From: Escherichia coli
Lineage (GTDB): Bacteria > Pseudomonadota > Gammaproteobacteria > Enterobacterales > Enterobacteriaceae
Length of the DNA: 64,000 bases
Strand: one strand, 5' to 3'
Assembly (NCBI RefSeq): GCF_030013205.1
Contig: NZ_CP122648.1
A model generated the notes under the pieces. It was not told the DNA's origin. It saw only the letters and a program-made list of their open reading frames with translations, and ran no database searches. Below, in pieces: positions 26,311 through 53,453 of the stretch; the stretch's first letter is position 1; each line of letters starts with the position of its first letter. A program made the position numbers and the translations under genes.

Positions 26311-26423
26311 ATGTATTCATTTCTATTCACTCTACACCATATTTTTCGGCGGTACAGGTGACGGTATTACCTTAAAGGTATACTCTCATACCGTCATGAA
26401 AATGGTTTCTATACGGGTGAATT

Positions 26424-27674
26424 GTGCTTACCGATACAAAATTAAAAAACCTCAAGCCGCAGGACAAACTGTACAAGGTCTCCGATCGTGACGGGCTGTA
26501 TGTAGCTGTGCTTACGTCAGGCACGGTCTCATTTCGTTATGACTACCGTATCAACGGTCGCCGCGAAACACTGGTAATCGGGCAGTATGGGCGTGACGGT
26601 ATCAGCCTGGCAGAAGCGCGGGAAGAACTGATTGCTGCAAAGAAGCTGCTTAAAGCAGGCCAGTCACCGGCTGCGGCTAAACGTGACGGTATCAAAAAGA
26701 TTCGTGGTGCCGAAACGTTTGCGGTACATACCGACAGTTATATGAAACACGTCATCCTGGCTGAAAGTACCCGCGCAATGAAGCAGGCAGTGATCGACCG
26801 TGACATACTTCCGGTTCTTGGCAACAAAATGATGGCTGAAATTACCACATCGATGGTTCGTGATTTGTGTGACCGGATTGTCGAACGCGGTGGCCGGGCA
26901 ACAGCAGTGCAGGCCAGGGAGATCATCAGCAGCGTATACCGTCACGCCAATGACCGTGGTCATGGTTTGTTTAATCCTGCGGCTGACATTAAGCCTTCGT
27001 CTATCGCCATATTTAAACCACGAGAGCGAACACTGACACCAGAAGAAATTGGCCTGTTCTTCCGCACGTTGGATGCCATTGGTGCTATGGGCACTATGAA
27101 AATGGCTTTAAAACTGGTGCTTATCACTATGGTTCGTAAGGGCGAATTCACCAATGCAACGTGGGATGAAATAGATTTTAAAAAATGGACATGGACAATT
27201 CCTTCAGACCGCATGAAGGGAAGCCGGGCGCATGTTATTTACCTGCCTAAACAGGCTCAGGATATATTGGTCGGGTTGCAGATGTGCGCTGGTGGAAGTG
27301 AATATCTGGTTCCTGGTCGTTACAATTTCCGGAAGCCATTATCTAATGCCGCGCTGAACTCTCTGATCGACAGAACGGTGAAAATAATAAATGAAGATGG
27401 TGAGCATATTCAGGATTTCACCGTACACGATATGCGCCGTACAGCCAGTACGTTGTTGCATGAGGCTGGTTATCCTTCAGACTGGATTGAAAAGGCTCTG
27501 GCACATGAGCAGAAAGGTGTGCGCGCCGTATATAACAAAGCGGAATACGCCAGACAGCGCGCCTACATGTTGCAGCAGTGGGCCGATATGATTGATTCCT
27601 GGATTAACGGGGAGCATACGGATCTGATTCCGTTCTCCCCGTCGAAGTTTGAGAAGTGGATGGCGGGGGAATAA
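26424..27674 (+). CDS. int: tyrosine-type site-specific integrase (P4-like, N-terminal DUF4102-type arm-binding domain)
   Basis: 416-aa ORF (GTG start) with LTDTKLKNLKP...YKVSDRDGLYVAV N-terminus and C-terminal catalytic region (HDMRRTASTLL...AYNK); sits next to attL. Confidence 0.9.
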   Translation: MLTDTKLKNLKPQDKLYKVSDRDGLYVAVLTSGTVSFRYDYRINGRRETLVIGQYGRDGISLAEAREELIAAKKLLKAGQSPAAAKRDGIKKIRGAETFAVHTDSYMKHVILAESTRAMKQAVIDRDILPVLGNKMMAEITTSMVRDLCDRIVERGGRATAVQAREIISSVYRHANDRGHGLFNPAADIKPSSIAIFKPRERTLTPEEIGLFFRTLDAIGAMGTMKMALKLVLITMVRKGEFTNATWDEIDFKKWTWTIPSDRMKGSRAHVIYLPKQAQDILVGLQMCAGGSEYLVPGRYNFRKPLSNAALNSLIDRTVKIINEDGEHIQDFTVHDMRRTASTLLHEAGYPSDWIEKALAHEQKGVRAVYNKAEYARQRAYMLQQWADMIDSWINGEHTDLIPFSPSKFEKWMAGE

Positions 27675-27677
27675 CGT

Positions 27678-27872
27678 TTAATTATTCTGCTGATTTTCTT
27701 CCATCTCGGCTTCTGCTGCCAGTGATTCAATTTTATCTGTGAATATTGCTGACAGTGTTGCAAATTCAGCATCAGTGACAGCGGGAATTGGAACAAACCT
27801 GATCCCGCTGTGTGCAAGCATGTTTGCAGTTTCAAGGCATTTCCTTAAATCTGATGGTGATGCCCTGTTCAT
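27678..27872 (-). CDS. small hypothetical phage protein, start overlaps the methyltransferase stop (ATGA)
   Basis: 64-aa ORF MNRASPSDLRK... read within the 27678..27992 track ORF; no recognisable domain. Confidence 0.3.
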   Translation of the reverse strand: MNRASPSDLRKCLETANMLAHSGIRFVPIPAVTDAEFATLSAIFTDKIESLAAEAEMEENQQNN

Positions 27873-50597: not shown

Positions 50598-52967
50598 ATG
50601 ACGGTCTCAACCGAAGTTGACCACAACGAATACACAGGTAACGGCGTTACGACATCATTTCCGTATACCTTCCGTATTTTCAAAAAATCCGACTTGGTTG
50701 TTCAGGTGGTTGACCTTGATGAAAATATTGCTGTGCTGGCTCTTGATACTGATTACACAGTAACTGGTGCGGGAGGGTACAACGGCGGTAATGTAATTCT
50801 GTCGAAGGCGTTGGCTAACGGTTATCAGATTTCTATATCACGAGACCTCCCGGTTACGCAGGAAACTGATTTGCGTAATCAGGGTAAGTTCTTTGCAGAA
50901 GTGCATGAGGATGCGCTTGATAAGCTAACGATGCTGATTCAGCAGGTTCGAAGCTGGTTCCGGCTGGCGTTGTGTAAGCCATCCAGTATAGCGAATTGGT
51001 ATGACGCACTTAATAACTATATTCGTAATCTGAAAGACCCACGCGACCCTCATGATGCAGCTACAAAAAACTATGTAGATACCATTGTATTCTCTAACCT
51101 TAGCCGAACTCTCCGAGTTCCTGAGCCAATAAATCAGTTACCTCCAGCAGCAGTTCGGCGGAATATGATGCCAGCATTTGATAATGATGGTAATGCGATT
51201 GTTGTTATTCCTCCATCTGGGTCAGCATCTGATGTGCTTATTCAGTTAGCAAGTTCTTCCGATGGAAAGGGGGATGCTTTAGTTGCAGTTAAACAACCTT
51301 ATGCTAATTCTGTAACTATTACTCAACATCAGCACAACACCTATCTTCTTACCCCTTACCACTTCGGAGCAAAGGGAGATGGTATTGCAGATGACACTCT
51401 TGCCCTAAACCGCTGGTCCAATTGCGGAGCTAAGGTACTCTATTGGCCAGCAGGAAAATATCTGGTGAGCCCTACAAATGGTGTTTCTCTGGATATGGAT
51501 AACTACCATACAGGGGATTCCGCACTGACGGCGTGCGTAACCGTTCCCTATGGCGTGAAAATTTATACGGCTGGGACAGAAACCCAGTTATGCGTGAAGG
51601 ATGCTGACTCAGCATCGACCGTAGGTCTGGCCGTTAGCTACCCGGAGTCAAGTTATTCCCAGGGAGAAACCGACATCGGAAAATTCATGATTCGCCTGGA
51701 AAACGGAAATGGTCGGTACGGTATTCTTACTCCACTCAGGGAGGAAATGTTCACTGCGCACCGGGCGAAGTTCAAATTAGGAGCGCATTTCGGTCCTCAA
51801 CAGGGGCGTGATGACCTGACGGTGCTACAGTATTCGTGGGTAAATGGCATGCTGATTGGCGACGCTTTTAGCGGCTCAGTGCATGTCACTGGATACGGCA
51901 GCTATAACGTGCAGCAGGTTGAAGGTACGCAATTCCAGTGCGTGGCCGTTAAGATGAAGTCCGTTCGAGGTAACGTAGGTGTAGACATCAGATTCAACAC
52001 AAACAACTGGTGGAAGTTTGTCGAACTGAGTGACGGCGTTGAAGGGTTTGTTGTCAAGGACAGCGAAGGGCTTGGGGCATTTGTTGGAATCGACCTAACC
52101 AACCCAGCCAGCGAGCCAGGTGGATTTATCGATAACGTACACGTCAACGTTAAGCAAAACGGAGTACGAGCCAGAAACAGGCCATCCCTGCAAATCGGAA
52201 ACATTGAAGTCTATAAAAGTGATGGATTTGCCACTGACCTTGTTTACGATGCGGTGCTTCTGGTTGACTGCCAGGAAGTGACTATCAACTCTATTCACGC
52301 AATCGTCGGCAACTCAATCACAAATGCTCAGTCAGTAGTTAACTCGACAAACAGCACATTCCGCCTGAACTCATACTTTGCGCAAAACATCAGGTTCGTC
52401 GATTTTGTGGTTAATAGCCCTGACTGCTATGTCGGAGAGGGGACAATTAACCAGGTCGAGGCAGTTCACTCACTTTCTGGATCACAAAGCAACGACTTCC
52501 ACGGTAGTGATGTTCTGGTTAGATCCTACAGAAACAACGTTCGCCCACTTTACGCAGTGATGGATTCCGCTTTCAACAGGGCAAGGGCGAGGTTTCCACA
52601 AAATACAAGCCTCCAGGTGAGAACCTTTCTCGACTACACTGTGGCAGCAGCTGGGACTTTAACAATAGAACCAAGGCTTGACCCCTCCAGGTACTACATC
52701 ATCATGAGTGCTGGTACAGGTGCCTTCACCTATTCAATTGAGCTGGATAAAGTGTCTGCCGTAGTTGGTGATATTGTTTACATAAAGATAGCCGGGTCAT
52801 CATCTGCTAACCCAACAGTTTTGGTTAAAAATGGTATTGGTGGGACAACGCTCAGCACATTCAATAATATCGGTCCGATTCGTTTGAATTGTGCTTACAG
52901 ATTTAATGAGTCAGGTAACTGGGTGGCCTACTACATTACCCAAAGCGTTGAAACCACTTATGGCTAA
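50598..52967 (+). CDS. tailspike/tail-fibre protein with predicted beta-helix depolymerase domain
   Basis: 789 aa; conserved-looking N-terminal particle-binding region; pectate-lyase-like motif GAKGDGIADDT; located just before the lysis cassette. Confidence 0.65.
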   Translation: MTVSTEVDHNEYTGNGVTTSFPYTFRIFKKSDLVVQVVDLDENIAVLALDTDYTVTGAGGYNGGNVILSKALANGYQISISRDLPVTQETDLRNQGKFFAEVHEDALDKLTMLIQQVRSWFRLALCKPSSIANWYDALNNYIRNLKDPRDPHDAATKNYVDTIVFSNLSRTLRVPEPINQLPPAAVRRNMMPAFDNDGNAIVVIPPSGSASDVLIQLASSSDGKGDALVAVKQPYANSVTITQHQHNTYLLTPYHFGAKGDGIADDTLALNRWSNCGAKVLYWPAGKYLVSPTNGVSLDMDNYHTGDSALTACVTVPYGVKIYTAGTETQLCVKDADSASTVGLAVSYPESSYSQGETDIGKFMIRLENGNGRYGILTPLREEMFTAHRAKFKLGAHFGPQQGRDDLTVLQYSWVNGMLIGDAFSGSVHVTGYGSYNVQQVEGTQFQCVAVKMKSVRGNVGVDIRFNTNNWWKFVELSDGVEGFVVKDSEGLGAFVGIDLTNPASEPGGFIDNVHVNVKQNGVRARNRPSLQIGNIEVYKSDGFATDLVYDAVLLVDCQEVTINSIHAIVGNSITNAQSVVNSTNSTFRLNSYFAQNIRFVDFVVNSPDCYVGEGTINQVEAVHSLSGSQSNDFHGSDVLVRSYRNNVRPLYAVMDSAFNRARARFPQNTSLQVRTFLDYTVAAAGTLTIEPRLDPSRYYIIMSAGTGAFTYSIELDKVSAVVGDIVYIKIAGSSSANPTVLVKNGIGGTTLSTFNNIGPIRLNCAYRFNESGNWVAYYITQSVETTYG

Positions 52968-53087
52968 TAGTCATTATTAATATCCTGCAGATGTGACCTA
53001 ACGACAAGCGTCGCCACGATGACAACTACGGAAAGGATGCCGATAACCCACCACATAACTTACCCGCGCAAAATGAATGGATAAAAA

Positions 53088-53297
53088 TCATCCGCTGATT
53101 GATCCTAATCTTTGCATATTTTTCGAAGATGTTACGTTTAGTGGGGCGAAAAAAGCAATTACAGCAATGCCACCTATCGACGTAAGTCCGAAAAAGCCAG
53201 GCTCAGGTCTGCCGCTAATTGGGTATTGATGGCTTACAAGGACTACAAGTGATGCGATAAGCCTGATCACGTCAAAGCAATTATGTCTGTTATTCAT
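53088..53297 (-). pseudogene. N-terminal remnant of an acyltransferase-3 family gene (O-antigen acetyltransferase-like)
   Basis: 69-aa ORF; FDVIRLIASLVVLVSHQ resembles the conserved N-terminal helix of acyltransferase-3 proteins; only ~120 bp remain downstream before the tailspike stop. Confidence 0.4.
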
Positions 53298-53453
53298 ACA
53301 TCCATACTGTAGGAAATAGCGATACGAAACAATATCACCTCACGGGTAATTTAGAGATAGGTGGACTCATAAAATTTAATTCATATATGGTTTGTGTGTA
53401 TTATAAACCCAATAACCAATGGGGTGGATTATACACAGTAATCGGCGGTCTTT

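What the first reader, a model, noticed from the sequence alone, without database searches (positions are those of the whole stretch)
26366..53350. Thirteen copies of a palindromic motif ATTACC-N5-GGTAAT in prophage intergenic regions
Sites at 26366-26382, 31510-31526, 32222-32238, ~32240-32255, 32270-32286, 32608-32623, 34571-34587, 34633-34649, 48225-48241, 49266-49282, 49359-49375, 50478-50494 and 53334-53350. All are intergenic and within ~100 bp of gene starts; three are clustered between repressor and cro (OR-like). The motif also precedes int, the accessory genes, the tailspike side and the holin, suggesting a single regulator controls early, accessory and possibly late units. I did not see the motif in the flanking chromosome.
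Basis: seen in the sequence. Interest (0 to 1): 0.75.

Follow-up and report, generated by a model that had tools for sequence, protein, structure and literature searches.

The report
Known repressor operators of ε15-like prophage
The repeated palindrome is real and is almost certainly the binding site of the prophage's own repressor, but the same motif is already annotated as the repressor site in the related phage ε15, so this is a sound but ordinary finding.

Summary
All lie inside the prophage (att cores at 26217 and 55362) and all are intergenic, although only 7% of the prophage is intergenic. The 34.8 kb of flanking chromosome has no comparable site. Only N5 spacing is enriched.

The element is a partly deleted phiV10/ε15-like podovirus prophage (genus Uetakevirus) inserted at the end of guaA. 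The ε15 GenBank record already marks seven sites with exactly this motif as repressor binding sites. The same motif sits at matching positions in phiV10, Tyrion, ε15, SPC32H and a Klebsiella phage.

The 194-aa repressor is a full-length homologue of the crystallised tetrameric SPC32H Rep and is identical to the phiV10 and ZX5 repressor. Over-expressing the ZX5 protein abolished holin and endolysin transcripts. A small antirepressor gene with a perfect LexA box completes the known LexA-Ant-Rep circuit.

Possibly new details are operator pairs exactly 62 bp apart at two promoters in all six genomes, and one operator heading an isrK/C4 small-RNA and antirepressor module. Novelty is low.

The parts
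26217..26233 (+). attL core ATTGAGTGGGAATGATT at the 3' end of guaA; left end of the prophage
   Evidence: Exact match to the published attP/attB core of phiV10, ε15 and ZX5 (PMC9782041), found at 26217 and 55362.
26366..26382 (.). Rep operator upstream of int (ATTACCTTAAAGGTATA, score 21.3), 42 bp before the int start at 26424
   Evidence: An orthologous site is present in phiV10 (26869), ε15 (26881), SPC32H (26959), Tyrion (28567) and, more weakly, the Klebsiella phage (12619).
31448..31464 (.). OL proximal operator (GTTACCGTTGAGGTAAT); overlaps the last 2 nt of the -10 and the start site of the leftward early promoter PL.
   Evidence: The PL prediction is -35 TTGACA 31491-31486 and -10 31468-31463. 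The operator and the GTCAATAG block are conserved in 5 genomes.
31510..31526 (.). OL distal operator (exact ATTACCCGTTAGGTAAT), 62 bp centre-to-centre from the proximal one
   Evidence: The 62-bp spacing is found in the five genomes where two OL sites pass the scan threshold (window, phiV10, Tyrion, ε15, SPC32H); in the Klebsiella phage the distal site is recognisable only in the alignment.
31583..32167 (-). Rep, the 194-aa prophage repressor (two HTH domains plus a C-terminal tetramerisation and Ant-binding domain)
   Evidence: Full-length match to SPC32H Rep, PDB 5D50, E 4e-42. 100% identical to phiV10 p40 and ZX5 ORF21. Pfam finds HTH_3/HTH_26 only and no peptidase S24 domain.
32222..32238 (.). 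OR site nearest rep (ATTACCCAACAGGTAAA, score 21.0). Covers the -35 (TTTACC) and spacer of the inferred rep promoter, whose -10 is TTAAAT at 32215-32210
   Evidence: The TTTACC-17-TTAAAT arrangement is conserved in all 5 aligned genomes. The promoter assignment is inference.
32239..32255 (.). Middle OR site (TGCACCTCATAGGTAAC, score 11.9; weak left half), directly abutting the previous site
   Evidence: The orthologues in ε15 and SPC32H are much better matches (16.3 and 16.7).
32270..32286 (.). OR site nearest cro (GTTACCTTATGGGTGAA, score 15.3). Lies in the spacer of the rightward promoter PR, just after the invariant -35 TTGATT at 32261-32266
32322..32552 (+). Cro-like 76-aa protein (phiV10 p41 / ε15 gp39); possible second ligand of the operators
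   Evidence: PHROG 35 'transcriptional repressor', E 5.6e-13. 58-84% identical across genomes, with an invariant AGTTSHYIQ.HLT stretch. No significant Pfam hit.
32607..32623 (.). Operator after the cro terminator (CGTACCTCAAAGGTAAT), 16 nt upstream of a TTGATC-17-CAAAAT promoter-like site that heads the replication genes
   Evidence: Orthologues in phiV10, Tyrion, ε15 and SPC32H.
34571..34587 (.). Distal operator of the pair upstream of the DUF1064 / Holliday-junction-resolvase-like gene
   Evidence: Lies 62 bp from the proximal site in all six genomes.
34633..34649 (.). Proximal operator (ATTACCTTAGAGGTAAA). Its first 2 nt are the end of the -10 TTTAAT (34629-34634; -35 TTGATT 34606-34611). 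It contains the ribosome-binding site of the gene that starts at 34652
48225..48241 (.). Operator heading the leftward accessory operon 48199->47124 (69-aa and 288-aa proteins of unknown function). A -10-like TAATAT (48245-48240) overlaps its end
   Evidence: The promoter assignment is inference.
49266..49282 (.). Operator at the tandem leftward promoters of the isrK-C4-ant module. It overlaps the -10 (TATCAT, 49286-49281) of the upstream promoter and abuts the -35 (TTTACA, 49265-49260) of the downstream one
   Evidence: Orthologue in phiV10 at 20496.
49154..49230 (-). isrK-family small RNA; its 5' end coincides with the start site predicted from the downstream promoter
   Evidence: Rfam RF01394, 74.7 bits (gathering score 50), full-length model match.
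49048..49135 (-). C4 antisense RNA (P1/P7 immI type)
   Evidence: Rfam RF01695, 78.6 bits (gathering score 45), full-length model match.
48307..49044 (-). Bro-N/KilAC-type antirepressor-like ORF (longest ORF; the true start is probably further in)
   Evidence: PHROG 130 'anti-repressor Ant', E 4.6e-52. phiV10 p23 is annotated as 'putative anti-immunity protein'.
49359..49375 (.). Operator (exact ATTACCTTTAAGGTAAT, top score 26.8) 20 bp upstream of the rightward accessory gene 49395-50123 (PHROG 6762, function unknown)
   Evidence: This cassette is absent from phiV10.
50145..50402 (-). Small antirepressor Ant (85 aa), SPC32H type
   Evidence: 88% identical to SPC32H Ant and 96% to phiV10 p24. 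The SPC32H record labels the orthologue 'ant'.
50424..50439 (.). LexA box CTGTATATTTATACAG, 22 bp upstream of ant
   Evidence: The only perfect CTGT-N8-ACAG with an A/T-rich centre in the window. Conserved in all six genomes.
50478..50494 (.). Operator (exact ATTACCCGAAAGGTAAT) in the divergent ant / tailspike control region
   Evidence: The operator, and its ungapped distance to the LexA box on one side and to the CATATgTGGTTT...TAGAAT block on the other, are conserved. The same site is annotated as a repressor site in ε15 (19895-19911).
53334..53350 (.). Operator (ATCACCTCACGGGTAAT) between a leftward 69-aa gene (53297->53088) and the rightward lysis cassette (53454-55251)
   Evidence: Conserved in 5 genomes, followed by a variable spacer of fixed length and then an invariant CATAT.TGGTTT.TGTGTAT.AT block.
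55362..55378 (+). attR core; right end of the 29.2-kb prophage

Best explanation
What it is. The 17-bp palindromes are the operators of the prophage's own repressor, Rep (31583-32167, minus strand). Rep is an SPC32H/ε15-type protein with two HTH domains, it forms tetramers, and it has no self-cleavage domain.

How it works (inferred). In the lysogen, Rep occupies operators placed at essentially every transcription unit of this Uetakevirus prophage:
- PL: two sites.
- The divergent rep/cro region: three sites. The cro-proximal site sits inside PR. The rep-proximal site sits over the -35 of the rep promoter. The weak middle site abuts it.
- The promoter after the cro terminator.
- The DUF1064 promoter: two sites.
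- int.
- Two accessory cassettes.
- The isrK-C4-ant module.
- The ant/tailspike region.
- The region upstream of the lysis cassette.

Intact relatives have two more sites, before terS and before the head genes. This defective copy has deleted them.

Operator geometry (inferred). At several promoters (PL, DUF1064, 48225, the upstream isrK promoter) the last two bases of the -10 hexamer are the first two bases of ATTACC, so bound Rep would block RNA polymerase. At PL and the DUF1064 promoter a second operator lies exactly 62 bp (about six helical turns) upstream. This suggests one tetramer, with its two DNA-binding units, clamping both sites around the -35 region.

Induction (inferred by homology). 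DNA damage removes LexA from the box in front of ant, and Ant then dismantles Rep tetramers.

Shown here: the existence of the motif, its statistics, its conservation and its positions; the homology of Rep and Ant; the LexA box; and the small-RNA genes. Inferred: Rep binding, the promoter assignments, the clamping model and the induction pathway.
For: Motif statistics and intergenic restriction.

The ε15 GenBank record (AY150271.2) annotates seven 'protein_bind, repressor, lysogeny' features, and every one reads (A)TTACC-N5-GGTAAT.

The motif is found at syntenic positions in phiV10, Tyrion, ε15, SPC32H and Klebsiella phage BUCT711, with 9-15 sites per genome.

Rep is a full-length homologue of SPC32H Rep (5D50, E 4e-42). 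It has HTH domains only and no S24 peptidase. Its N-terminal NLVNRW helix is invariant across orthologues that are otherwise 42-78% identical, which matches the invariant half-site.

SPC32H Rep is reported to bind palindromic DNA sites as a tetramer and to be disassembled by a tetrameric Ant (PMC9638917, citing Kim et al. 2016). Its tetramerisation domain has the 'TetDloop' fold, which drives DNA looping in the plasmid pLS20 repressor Rco (PMC9986798).

Ant is 88% identical to SPC32H Ant, and a conserved perfect LexA box precedes it.

In ZX5, over-expression of a repressor identical to the window's cut holin and endolysin mRNA by more than 99.9% (PMC9782041; identity).

Operators overlap or abut conserved -35 and -10 hexamers. 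The 62-bp pair is exact in all six genomes upstream of the DUF1064 gene and in the five genomes with two scored OL sites.
Against: - I could not read any direct binding data for this motif. The ε15, phiV10 and SPC32H primary papers are not in the held library. The ε15 features may themselves be bioinformatic predictions.
- The ZX5 expression result could be indirect.
- Four single sites (after cro, ant, tailspike, lysis) centre about 57-74 bp upstream of the putative start sites. That is not a classic repressing position.
- The strongest OR site overlaps the repressor's own promoter rather than PR, which a simple lambda-style model does not predict.
- All promoter calls are consensus matches without transcript data.
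Confidence: 0.85

Rival explanations
1. The Cro-like 76-aa protein (32322-32552), not Rep, is the main or only ligand of the dispersed sites. It would use them to shut down early and accessory transcription during lytic growth. A compatible version is that Cro and Rep share the sites, as in lambda.
For: The protein falls in a PHROG of transcriptional repressors. It is highly conserved with an invariant HTH-like stretch, so it too could recognise an invariant site. Lambda Cro and CI share operators (established knowledge).
Against: The ε15 depositors assigned the sites to the repressor. Rep's DNA-binding helix is equally invariant. Paired sites 62 bp apart fit a tetramer with two DNA-binding units better than a small Cro dimer. 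Shared use cannot be excluded and does not contradict the main explanation.
Confidence: 0.1
2. At the single, promoter-distal sites (ant, after cro, tailspike, lysis/conversion region) Rep acts as an activator or architectural factor rather than a repressor. For example, it might boost lysogenic-conversion genes or ant, or bridge distant operators into loops.
For: Operator centres lie roughly 57-74 bp upstream of the putative start sites. The intervening DNA is variable in sequence but fixed in length. Rep is a tetramer, and its tetramerisation domain has a fold that drives DNA looping in another repressor. The divergent leftward genes next to the lysis-cassette site are conversion genes in ε15 and phiV10 and must be expressed in lysogens.
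Against: There are no transcript data. Start sites are guessed from consensus hexamers. The ZX5 data show net repression of holin and endolysin by Rep. Rep activating ant would be self-defeating.
Confidence: 0.15
3. The palindromes act as RNA or DNA hairpins (terminators, processing sites or recombination sites) rather than as protein operators.
For: They are inverted repeats. The ε15 record places RNase III and integrase features overlapping the int-proximal site.
Against: The predicted hairpins are weak (-2 to -9 kcal/mol, 4-6 bp A/T-rich stems) and none is followed by a T-run. Genuine terminators lie beside them. Conservation falls on the half-site sequence with a free, A/T-rich centre and shows no compensatory changes. 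The strict N5 spacing is typical of binding by a dimeric HTH protein.
Confidence: 0.02

Closest known systems
Repressor operators of Salmonella phage ε15 and the Rep-Ant-LexA switch of SPC32H (genus Uetakevirus)
   Same: The 17-bp consensus ATTACC-N5-GGTAAT is identical, and the sites sit at syntenic positions. Rep is homologous over its full length. Ant is homologous and has the same LexA box. The att core and the guaA integration site are the same.
   Different: This copy is an E. coli phiV10-type prophage whose Rep is only 42% identical to the ε15 and SPC32H Rep. It has two OL sites where ε15 and SPC32H have three. It carries extra operator-headed accessory cassettes (48225, 49359). It has lost the terS-proximal and head-gene-proximal operators through deletion. 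The ε15 record annotates only 7 of the roughly 15 sites my scan finds there.
Lambda CI/Cro with OL and OR
   Same: Operators are 17 bp and two-fold symmetric, and the half-site differs from lambda's ATCACC by one base (lambda consensus from my own knowledge; site 53334 even reads ATCACC). There are three sites between divergent repressor and cro genes, and the OL and OR clusters flank the repressor gene. The OR layout suggests repression of PR plus autoregulation of the repressor promoter.
   Different: Rep has no RecA-stimulated self-cleavage domain, has two HTH domains, forms tetramers, and is inactivated by an antirepressor. Nine of the 14 sites lie outside OL and OR, at int, replication, accessory, tailspike and lysis units. 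No Q-like or N-like cascade is evident.
Phage P1 C1 repressor with many dispersed operators and the immI (c4 RNA-ant) module
   Same: One repressor has more than ten operators scattered over the genome, each at a separate operon. One operator stands at tandem promoters in front of a C4 antisense RNA and an antirepressor gene. The P1 facts are from my own knowledge (Heinrich et al. 1995; Lobocka et al. 2004).
   Different: P1 operators are asymmetric 17-mers bound by an unrelated C1 protein. Here the sites are palindromic and are bound by an HTH protein of the Cro/C1 class.
Stoperators of cluster A mycobacteriophages (L5 gp71)
   Same: Many repressor sites are dispersed through a prophage genome.
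   Different: Stoperators are asymmetric 13-bp sites. They are orientation-dependent, lie within transcribed regions, and block elongation (from my own knowledge; the contrast between symmetric and asymmetric operators is also noted in the abstract of PMC1934351). The sites here are symmetric and sit at promoters.

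Membership tests
Uetakevirus (ε15/SPC32H-type) Rep-operator system | Full-length Rep homologue: N-terminal HTH, second HTH, C-terminal tetramerisation and Ant-binding domain | tested here: met
   5D50 match over residues 1-190, E 4e-42; alignment with 4 orthologues; two HTH regions in Pfam.
Uetakevirus (ε15/SPC32H-type) Rep-operator system | Operator consensus ATTACC-N5-GGTAAT, as annotated in the ε15 record | tested here: met
   All seven ε15 'protein_bind repressor' features read this motif. A matrix built from the window sites recovers them and their SPC32H equivalents.
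Uetakevirus (ε15/SPC32H-type) Rep-operator system | Operators at syntenic positions (OL, OR, after cro, DUF1064/RuvC pair, int, ant/tailspike, lysis) | tested here: met
Uetakevirus (ε15/SPC32H-type) Rep-operator system | Small Ant antirepressor gene preceded by a LexA box | tested here: met
   Ant is 88% identical to SPC32H Ant. A perfect LexA box at 50424-50439 is conserved in six genomes.
Uetakevirus (ε15/SPC32H-type) Rep-operator system | Physical binding of Rep to the 17-bp sites | not testable with these tools
   Needs EMSA, footprinting or ChIP. The primary SPC32H and ε15 papers are not held. Secondary sources say only that Rep binds palindromic sites as a tetramer.
Lambda-type CI/Cro immunity switch | Three two-fold symmetric operators between divergent repressor and cro genes, plus an OL cluster | tested here: met
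   OR sites at 32222, 32239 and 32270; OL sites at 31448 and 31510.
Lambda-type CI/Cro immunity switch | Repressor with a C-terminal S24 (LexA-like) self-cleavage domain | tested here: not met
   No Peptidase_S24 hit; HTH families only. The C-terminal domain aligns to the SPC32H tetramerisation domain.
Lambda-type CI/Cro immunity switch | Operators confined to OL and OR, with late genes controlled through a cascade | tested here: not met
   Nine of the 14 sites lie elsewhere: int, after cro, the DUF1064 pair, two accessory cassettes, the isrK/C4/ant module, ant/tailspike, and lysis.
P1/P7 immI module (C4 antisense RNA + antirepressor) | C4 RNA gene immediately upstream of an ant gene, on the same strand | tested here: met
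   Rfam C4, 78.6 bits, at 49135->49048, followed by the Bro-N/KilAC ORF 49044->48307.
P1/P7 immI module (C4 antisense RNA + antirepressor) | C4 base-pairs with target sites in the ant leader and blocks ant expression | not tested
   I did not search for the complementary target sequences.
Mycobacteriophage stoperators | Asymmetric, orientation-biased sites inside transcription units | tested here: not met
   The sites are palindromic and all are intergenic.

The most novel reading that the evidence does not exclude
The Rep tetramer may use the strictly conserved 62-bp operator pairs to clamp a micro-loop around the -35 region of PL and the DUF1064 promoter. The single operators centred roughly 57-74 bp upstream of other putative promoters (ant, replication, tailspike, lysis or conversion genes) may work as activating or long-range bridging sites. 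The prophage would then be governed by a flat, loop-based network rather than a lambda-style cascade. I could not check whether the unavailable ε15 and SPC32H papers already describe this geometry.
Probability: 0.2. Interest if true: 0.45.

Novelty: already known. Interest (0 to 1): 0.2.

Why it matters
The motif and its assignment to the repressor are already public, in the ε15 GenBank features and the SPC32H Rep/Ant studies.

Practical value is modest:
- The phiV10-type records lack operator annotation, and the full site list could be transferred to them. That list is 14 sites here and about 13-16 in the intact E. coli, Enterobacter and Salmonella relatives.
- The conserved 62-bp pairs give a concrete, testable geometry for how the crystallised tetramer engages DNA.
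- The site catalogue shows that even a prophage that has lost its packaging and head genes keeps an intact Rep, Ant, LexA-box, C4 and isrK control layer. That matters for superinfection immunity and for cross-talk with related phages in E. coli.

Tried and rejected
1. Primary papers. I tried to read Kropinski 2007 (ε15), Perry 2009 (phiV10) and Kim & Ryu 2013 / Kim 2016 (SPC32H). None is held. Full-text searches for the motif string and for 'epsilon15 + operator' found nothing useful. The claim that the motif is 'already known' therefore rests on the deposited ε15 features and on secondary citations.

2. A second recurring string, CATAT(G/A)TGGTTT, next to several operators.
- It is conserved upstream of the tailspike, lysis and DUF1064 genes, but not at PL in ε15, SPC32H or the Klebsiella phage.
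- Its distance to candidate -10 hexamers is inconsistent.
- I could not decide whether it is a shared promoter-spacer element or a second regulator's site, so it is left as a side note.

3. IHF consensus between the paired operators. I checked by eye and found no convincing WATCAANNNNTTR match.

4. Iterons inside the replication gene. One copy reads TTACC-N6-GGTAA, which resembles the operator half-sites. This variant is absent from the five relatives, so I regard it as coincidence.

5. Hairpin or terminator reading of the palindromes. Rejected on energy and on the absence of T-runs.

6. Cryptic proximal operators 62 bp downstream of the single distal sites. I checked 32607, 50478 and 53334 by eye and found none.

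7. NCBIfam and PADLOC searches of the operator-headed accessory genes. No hits.

8. A host transcription factor as the ligand. Considered unlikely because the flanking chromosome lacks the motif and the motif travels with the phage across four host genera.

Full report

Yes. The exact pattern ATTACC-N5-GGTAAT occurs three times in the window against 0 expected. With up to two mismatches it occurs 16 times against 1.76 expected, and 12 of those lie between 26.3 and 53.4 kb.

I built a symmetrised weight matrix from those 12 sites, and it separates the window cleanly:
- Twelve sites score 18.3-26.8.
- Nothing in the 34.8 kb of flanking chromosome reaches 14. One hit there scores 12.1.
- Second-order Markov simulations of the prophage give 0.36 hits of 12 or more on average.

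It missed one strong site, 31448-31464.

Two further controls support the motif:
- All 14 sites are fully intergenic, although only 7% of the prophage is intergenic (P about 7e-17).
- The TACC-Nx-GGTA core is enriched only at x=5. There are 10-13 copies per genome, against 0-4 for every other spacing from 0 to 12, in the window and in five related phages.

**2. What is the element?**

The surrounding DNA is 97-98% identical to Escherichia phage phiV10 and its relatives in the genus Uetakevirus, the ε15-like podoviruses.

The published 17-bp att core ATTGAGTGGGAATGATT (PMC9782041) occurs at 26217 and 55362. The first copy lies at the 3' end of a 525-aa ORF that I take to be guaA. The prophage is only 29.2 kb long. 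Compared with phiV10 it lacks the small and large terminase, portal, protease and most of the capsid gene, plus a second block (phiV10 7652-10977). It is therefore defective.

**3. Is the motif already known?**

The ε15 GenBank record AY150271.2 carries seven features of type 'protein_bind, bound moiety repressor, note lysogeny'. Extracting them gives (A)TTACC-N5-GGTAAT in every case. They are dispersed in the same way as here:
- before terS;
- before the head genes;
- between gp19 and the tailspike;
- three between gp37 and the repressor gene;
- one before the RuvC-like gene.

The motif, its assignment to the repressor and its dispersal are thus already public for the type phage. The phiV10 record has no such features.

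I could not read the ε15, phiV10 or SPC32H primary papers, because they are not in the held library. I therefore cannot say whether binding to these exact sites has been shown experimentally.

**4. The regulator**

The 194-aa ORF at 31583-32167 (minus strand) has these properties:
- It aligns over its full length to the crystallised repressor of Salmonella phage SPC32H (PDB 5D50, E 4e-42).
- It has two HTH regions and no S24 peptidase domain.
- It is 100% identical to phiV10 p40 and to ZX5 ORF21.

Secondary sources report three things about SPC32H Rep:
- It binds palindromic sites as a tetramer.
- Each DNA-binding pair is formed across dimers.
- It is disassembled by a tetrameric antirepressor, Ant (PMC9638917).

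Its tetramerisation domain has the 'TetDloop' fold, which drives DNA looping in the plasmid pLS20 repressor Rco (PMC9986798).

In ZX5, over-expression of this very protein lowered holin and endolysin mRNA by 99.97-99.99% (PMC9782041). That fits the operator upstream of the lysis cassette, although the effect could be indirect.

Across orthologues that are only 42-78% identical, the N-terminal stretch containing NLVNRW is invariant. I infer this to be the recognition helix. Its invariance parallels the invariant half-site.

**5. Conservation**

The same matrix finds 9-15 sites in phiV10, Tyrion (Enterobacter), ε15, SPC32H (Salmonella) and BUCT711 (Klebsiella), at matching positions. Alignments of five orthologous control regions show the operators as conserved blocks, separated by DNA that varies in sequence but keeps a fixed length.

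**6. Anatomy and likely mechanism**

The positions below are shown by the tools. The promoter roles are inferred.

*OR.*
- An invariant TTGATT (32261-32266) is followed directly by operator 32270-32286. That operator therefore lies inside the core of the rightward promoter.
- On the other strand, TTTACC-17-TTAAAT is conserved in all genomes. Its -35 and spacer lie within operator 32222-32238, and the weak middle site abuts it.
- This is a lambda-like logic: repression of PR and autoregulation of the repressor promoter.

*PL.* The -35 is TTGACA (31491-31486). The -10 overlaps operator 31448-31464 by 2 nt. A second operator lies 62 bp upstream.

*DUF1064 promoter.* The arrangement is TTGATT-17-TTTAAT, and the last two bases of the -10 are the first two of operator 34633-34649. 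A second operator again lies exactly 62 bp upstream.

*The 62-bp pairs.* The spacing is exact in all six genomes upstream of the DUF1064 gene and in the five genomes with two scored OL sites. It equals about six helical turns. I infer that one tetramer clamps both sites around the -35 region.

*Other sites.*
- The same -10/operator overlap recurs at 48225 and at the upstream promoter of the 49266 site.
- Four single sites centre roughly 57-74 bp upstream of the putative start sites: after cro, ant, tailspike and lysis. Their mode of action is unclear.

**7. Induction circuit**

The small gene at 50145-50402 (minus strand) is 88% identical to SPC32H Ant. It is preceded by a perfect LexA box (50424-50439) that is conserved in six genomes. 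The known LexA-Ant-Rep pathway therefore applies by homology. (My summary of Kim & Ryu 2013 is from memory, because the paper could not be read.)

**8. A second antirepressor module**

Directly downstream of operator 49266-49282, on the minus strand, Rfam finds three elements in a row:
- a full-length isrK small RNA (49230->49154, 74.7 bits);
- a full-length C4 antisense RNA (49135->49048, 78.6 bits);
- then a Bro-N/KilAC antirepressor-like ORF.

A predicted promoter (TTTACA-17-CATAGT) places the start site at the 5' end of the isrK match. The operator abuts its -35 and overlaps the -10 of a second, upstream promoter. This resembles P1 immI, where a C1 operator stands at tandem promoters before c4-ant (from memory).

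**9. Rival readings**

- *Cro-like protein.* It may share the sites, or less probably be their sole ligand. It is equally well conserved. Shared use cannot be excluded.
- *Hairpin or terminator.* Rejected. The stems are weak and lack T-runs, real terminators lie beside the sites, and conservation falls on the half-site sequence with strict N5 spacing.
- *Host factor.* Unlikely, because the motif is absent from the flanks and travels with the phage across four host genera.

**10. Verdict**

The finding is nonetheless an instance of an already annotated operator system (ε15/SPC32H-type Rep). The parts that may be new are descriptive:
- the complete site catalogue (the ε15 record marks 7 of about 15);
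- the exact 62-bp pairs;
- the recurrent -10/operator overlap;
- the Rep operator at the isrK-C4-ant module.

Interest is low.

Noticed in passing
window 49048-49230 (minus strand): Two Rfam small-RNA genes sit in tandem, isrK (49230->49154) and C4 antisense RNA (49135->49048). They lie between Rep operator 49266 and a Bro-N/KilAC antirepressor-like ORF, forming a P1/P7 immI-like module. phiV10 annotates only a terminator and a 'similar to SF0880' feature in this stretch.
   Followed up: partly
window 50424-50439 and 50145-50402: A perfect LexA box lies 22 bp upstream of an 85-aa SPC32H-type Ant gene and is conserved in six Uetakevirus genomes. The prophage therefore carries two different antirepressor modules.
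   Followed up: yes
window 26217-55378 (junctions near 36989 and 37736-37834): The prophage is defective at 29.2 kb, against 39.1 kb for phiV10. It lacks terS, terL, portal, protease and most of the capsid gene (phiV10 39045 joined to 6905), plus phiV10 7652-10977. The complete immunity and lysis regions are kept.
   Followed up: partly
window 34621-34629, 50526-50534, 53385-53393, 31475-31483: A second recurring string, (C)ATAT(G/A)TGGTTT, lies 31-34 nt downstream of single or distal operators and just upstream of -10-like hexamers. It is invariant across genomes at the tailspike, lysis and DUF1064 promoters. It may be a shared promoter element or another regulator's site.
   Followed up: partly
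window 33171-33343: An array of 18- and 24-nt iteron-like repeats lies inside the replication initiator gene (32919-33752). It includes two lambda-ori-like ATCCC-AAAAAC-GGGAT palindromes and is probably the phage origin. One unit mimics the Rep half-sites with N6 spacing, but that variant is not conserved in relatives.
   Followed up: partly
window 29219-30978 (minus strand): The RecT-like and exonuclease-like ORFs are separate and overlapping here (322 aa and 273 aa). phiV10 annotates a single fused 'recET' gene at the equivalent position.
   Followed up: no
window 46800-50150: The accessory region between the tail genes and ant is mosaic among relatives; at most 61% is covered by any one phage record. 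Each cassette (48199->47124 and 49395-50123) arrives with its own Rep operator. The proteins have no NCBIfam or PADLOC match.
   Followed up: partly
L002 (ε15) 26881, 33340, 33357, 33387, 24703, 35968: The ε15 GenBank record does not annotate these matrix hits as repressor sites, including all three OR sites. It instead places integrase, RNase III or IHF features on or next to several of them.
   Followed up: partly
window 9000-11000 and 56000-59000: Low-GC stretches (about 40-45% against about 52%) lie in the chromosome outside the prophage. They may be other horizontally acquired DNA.
   Followed up: no
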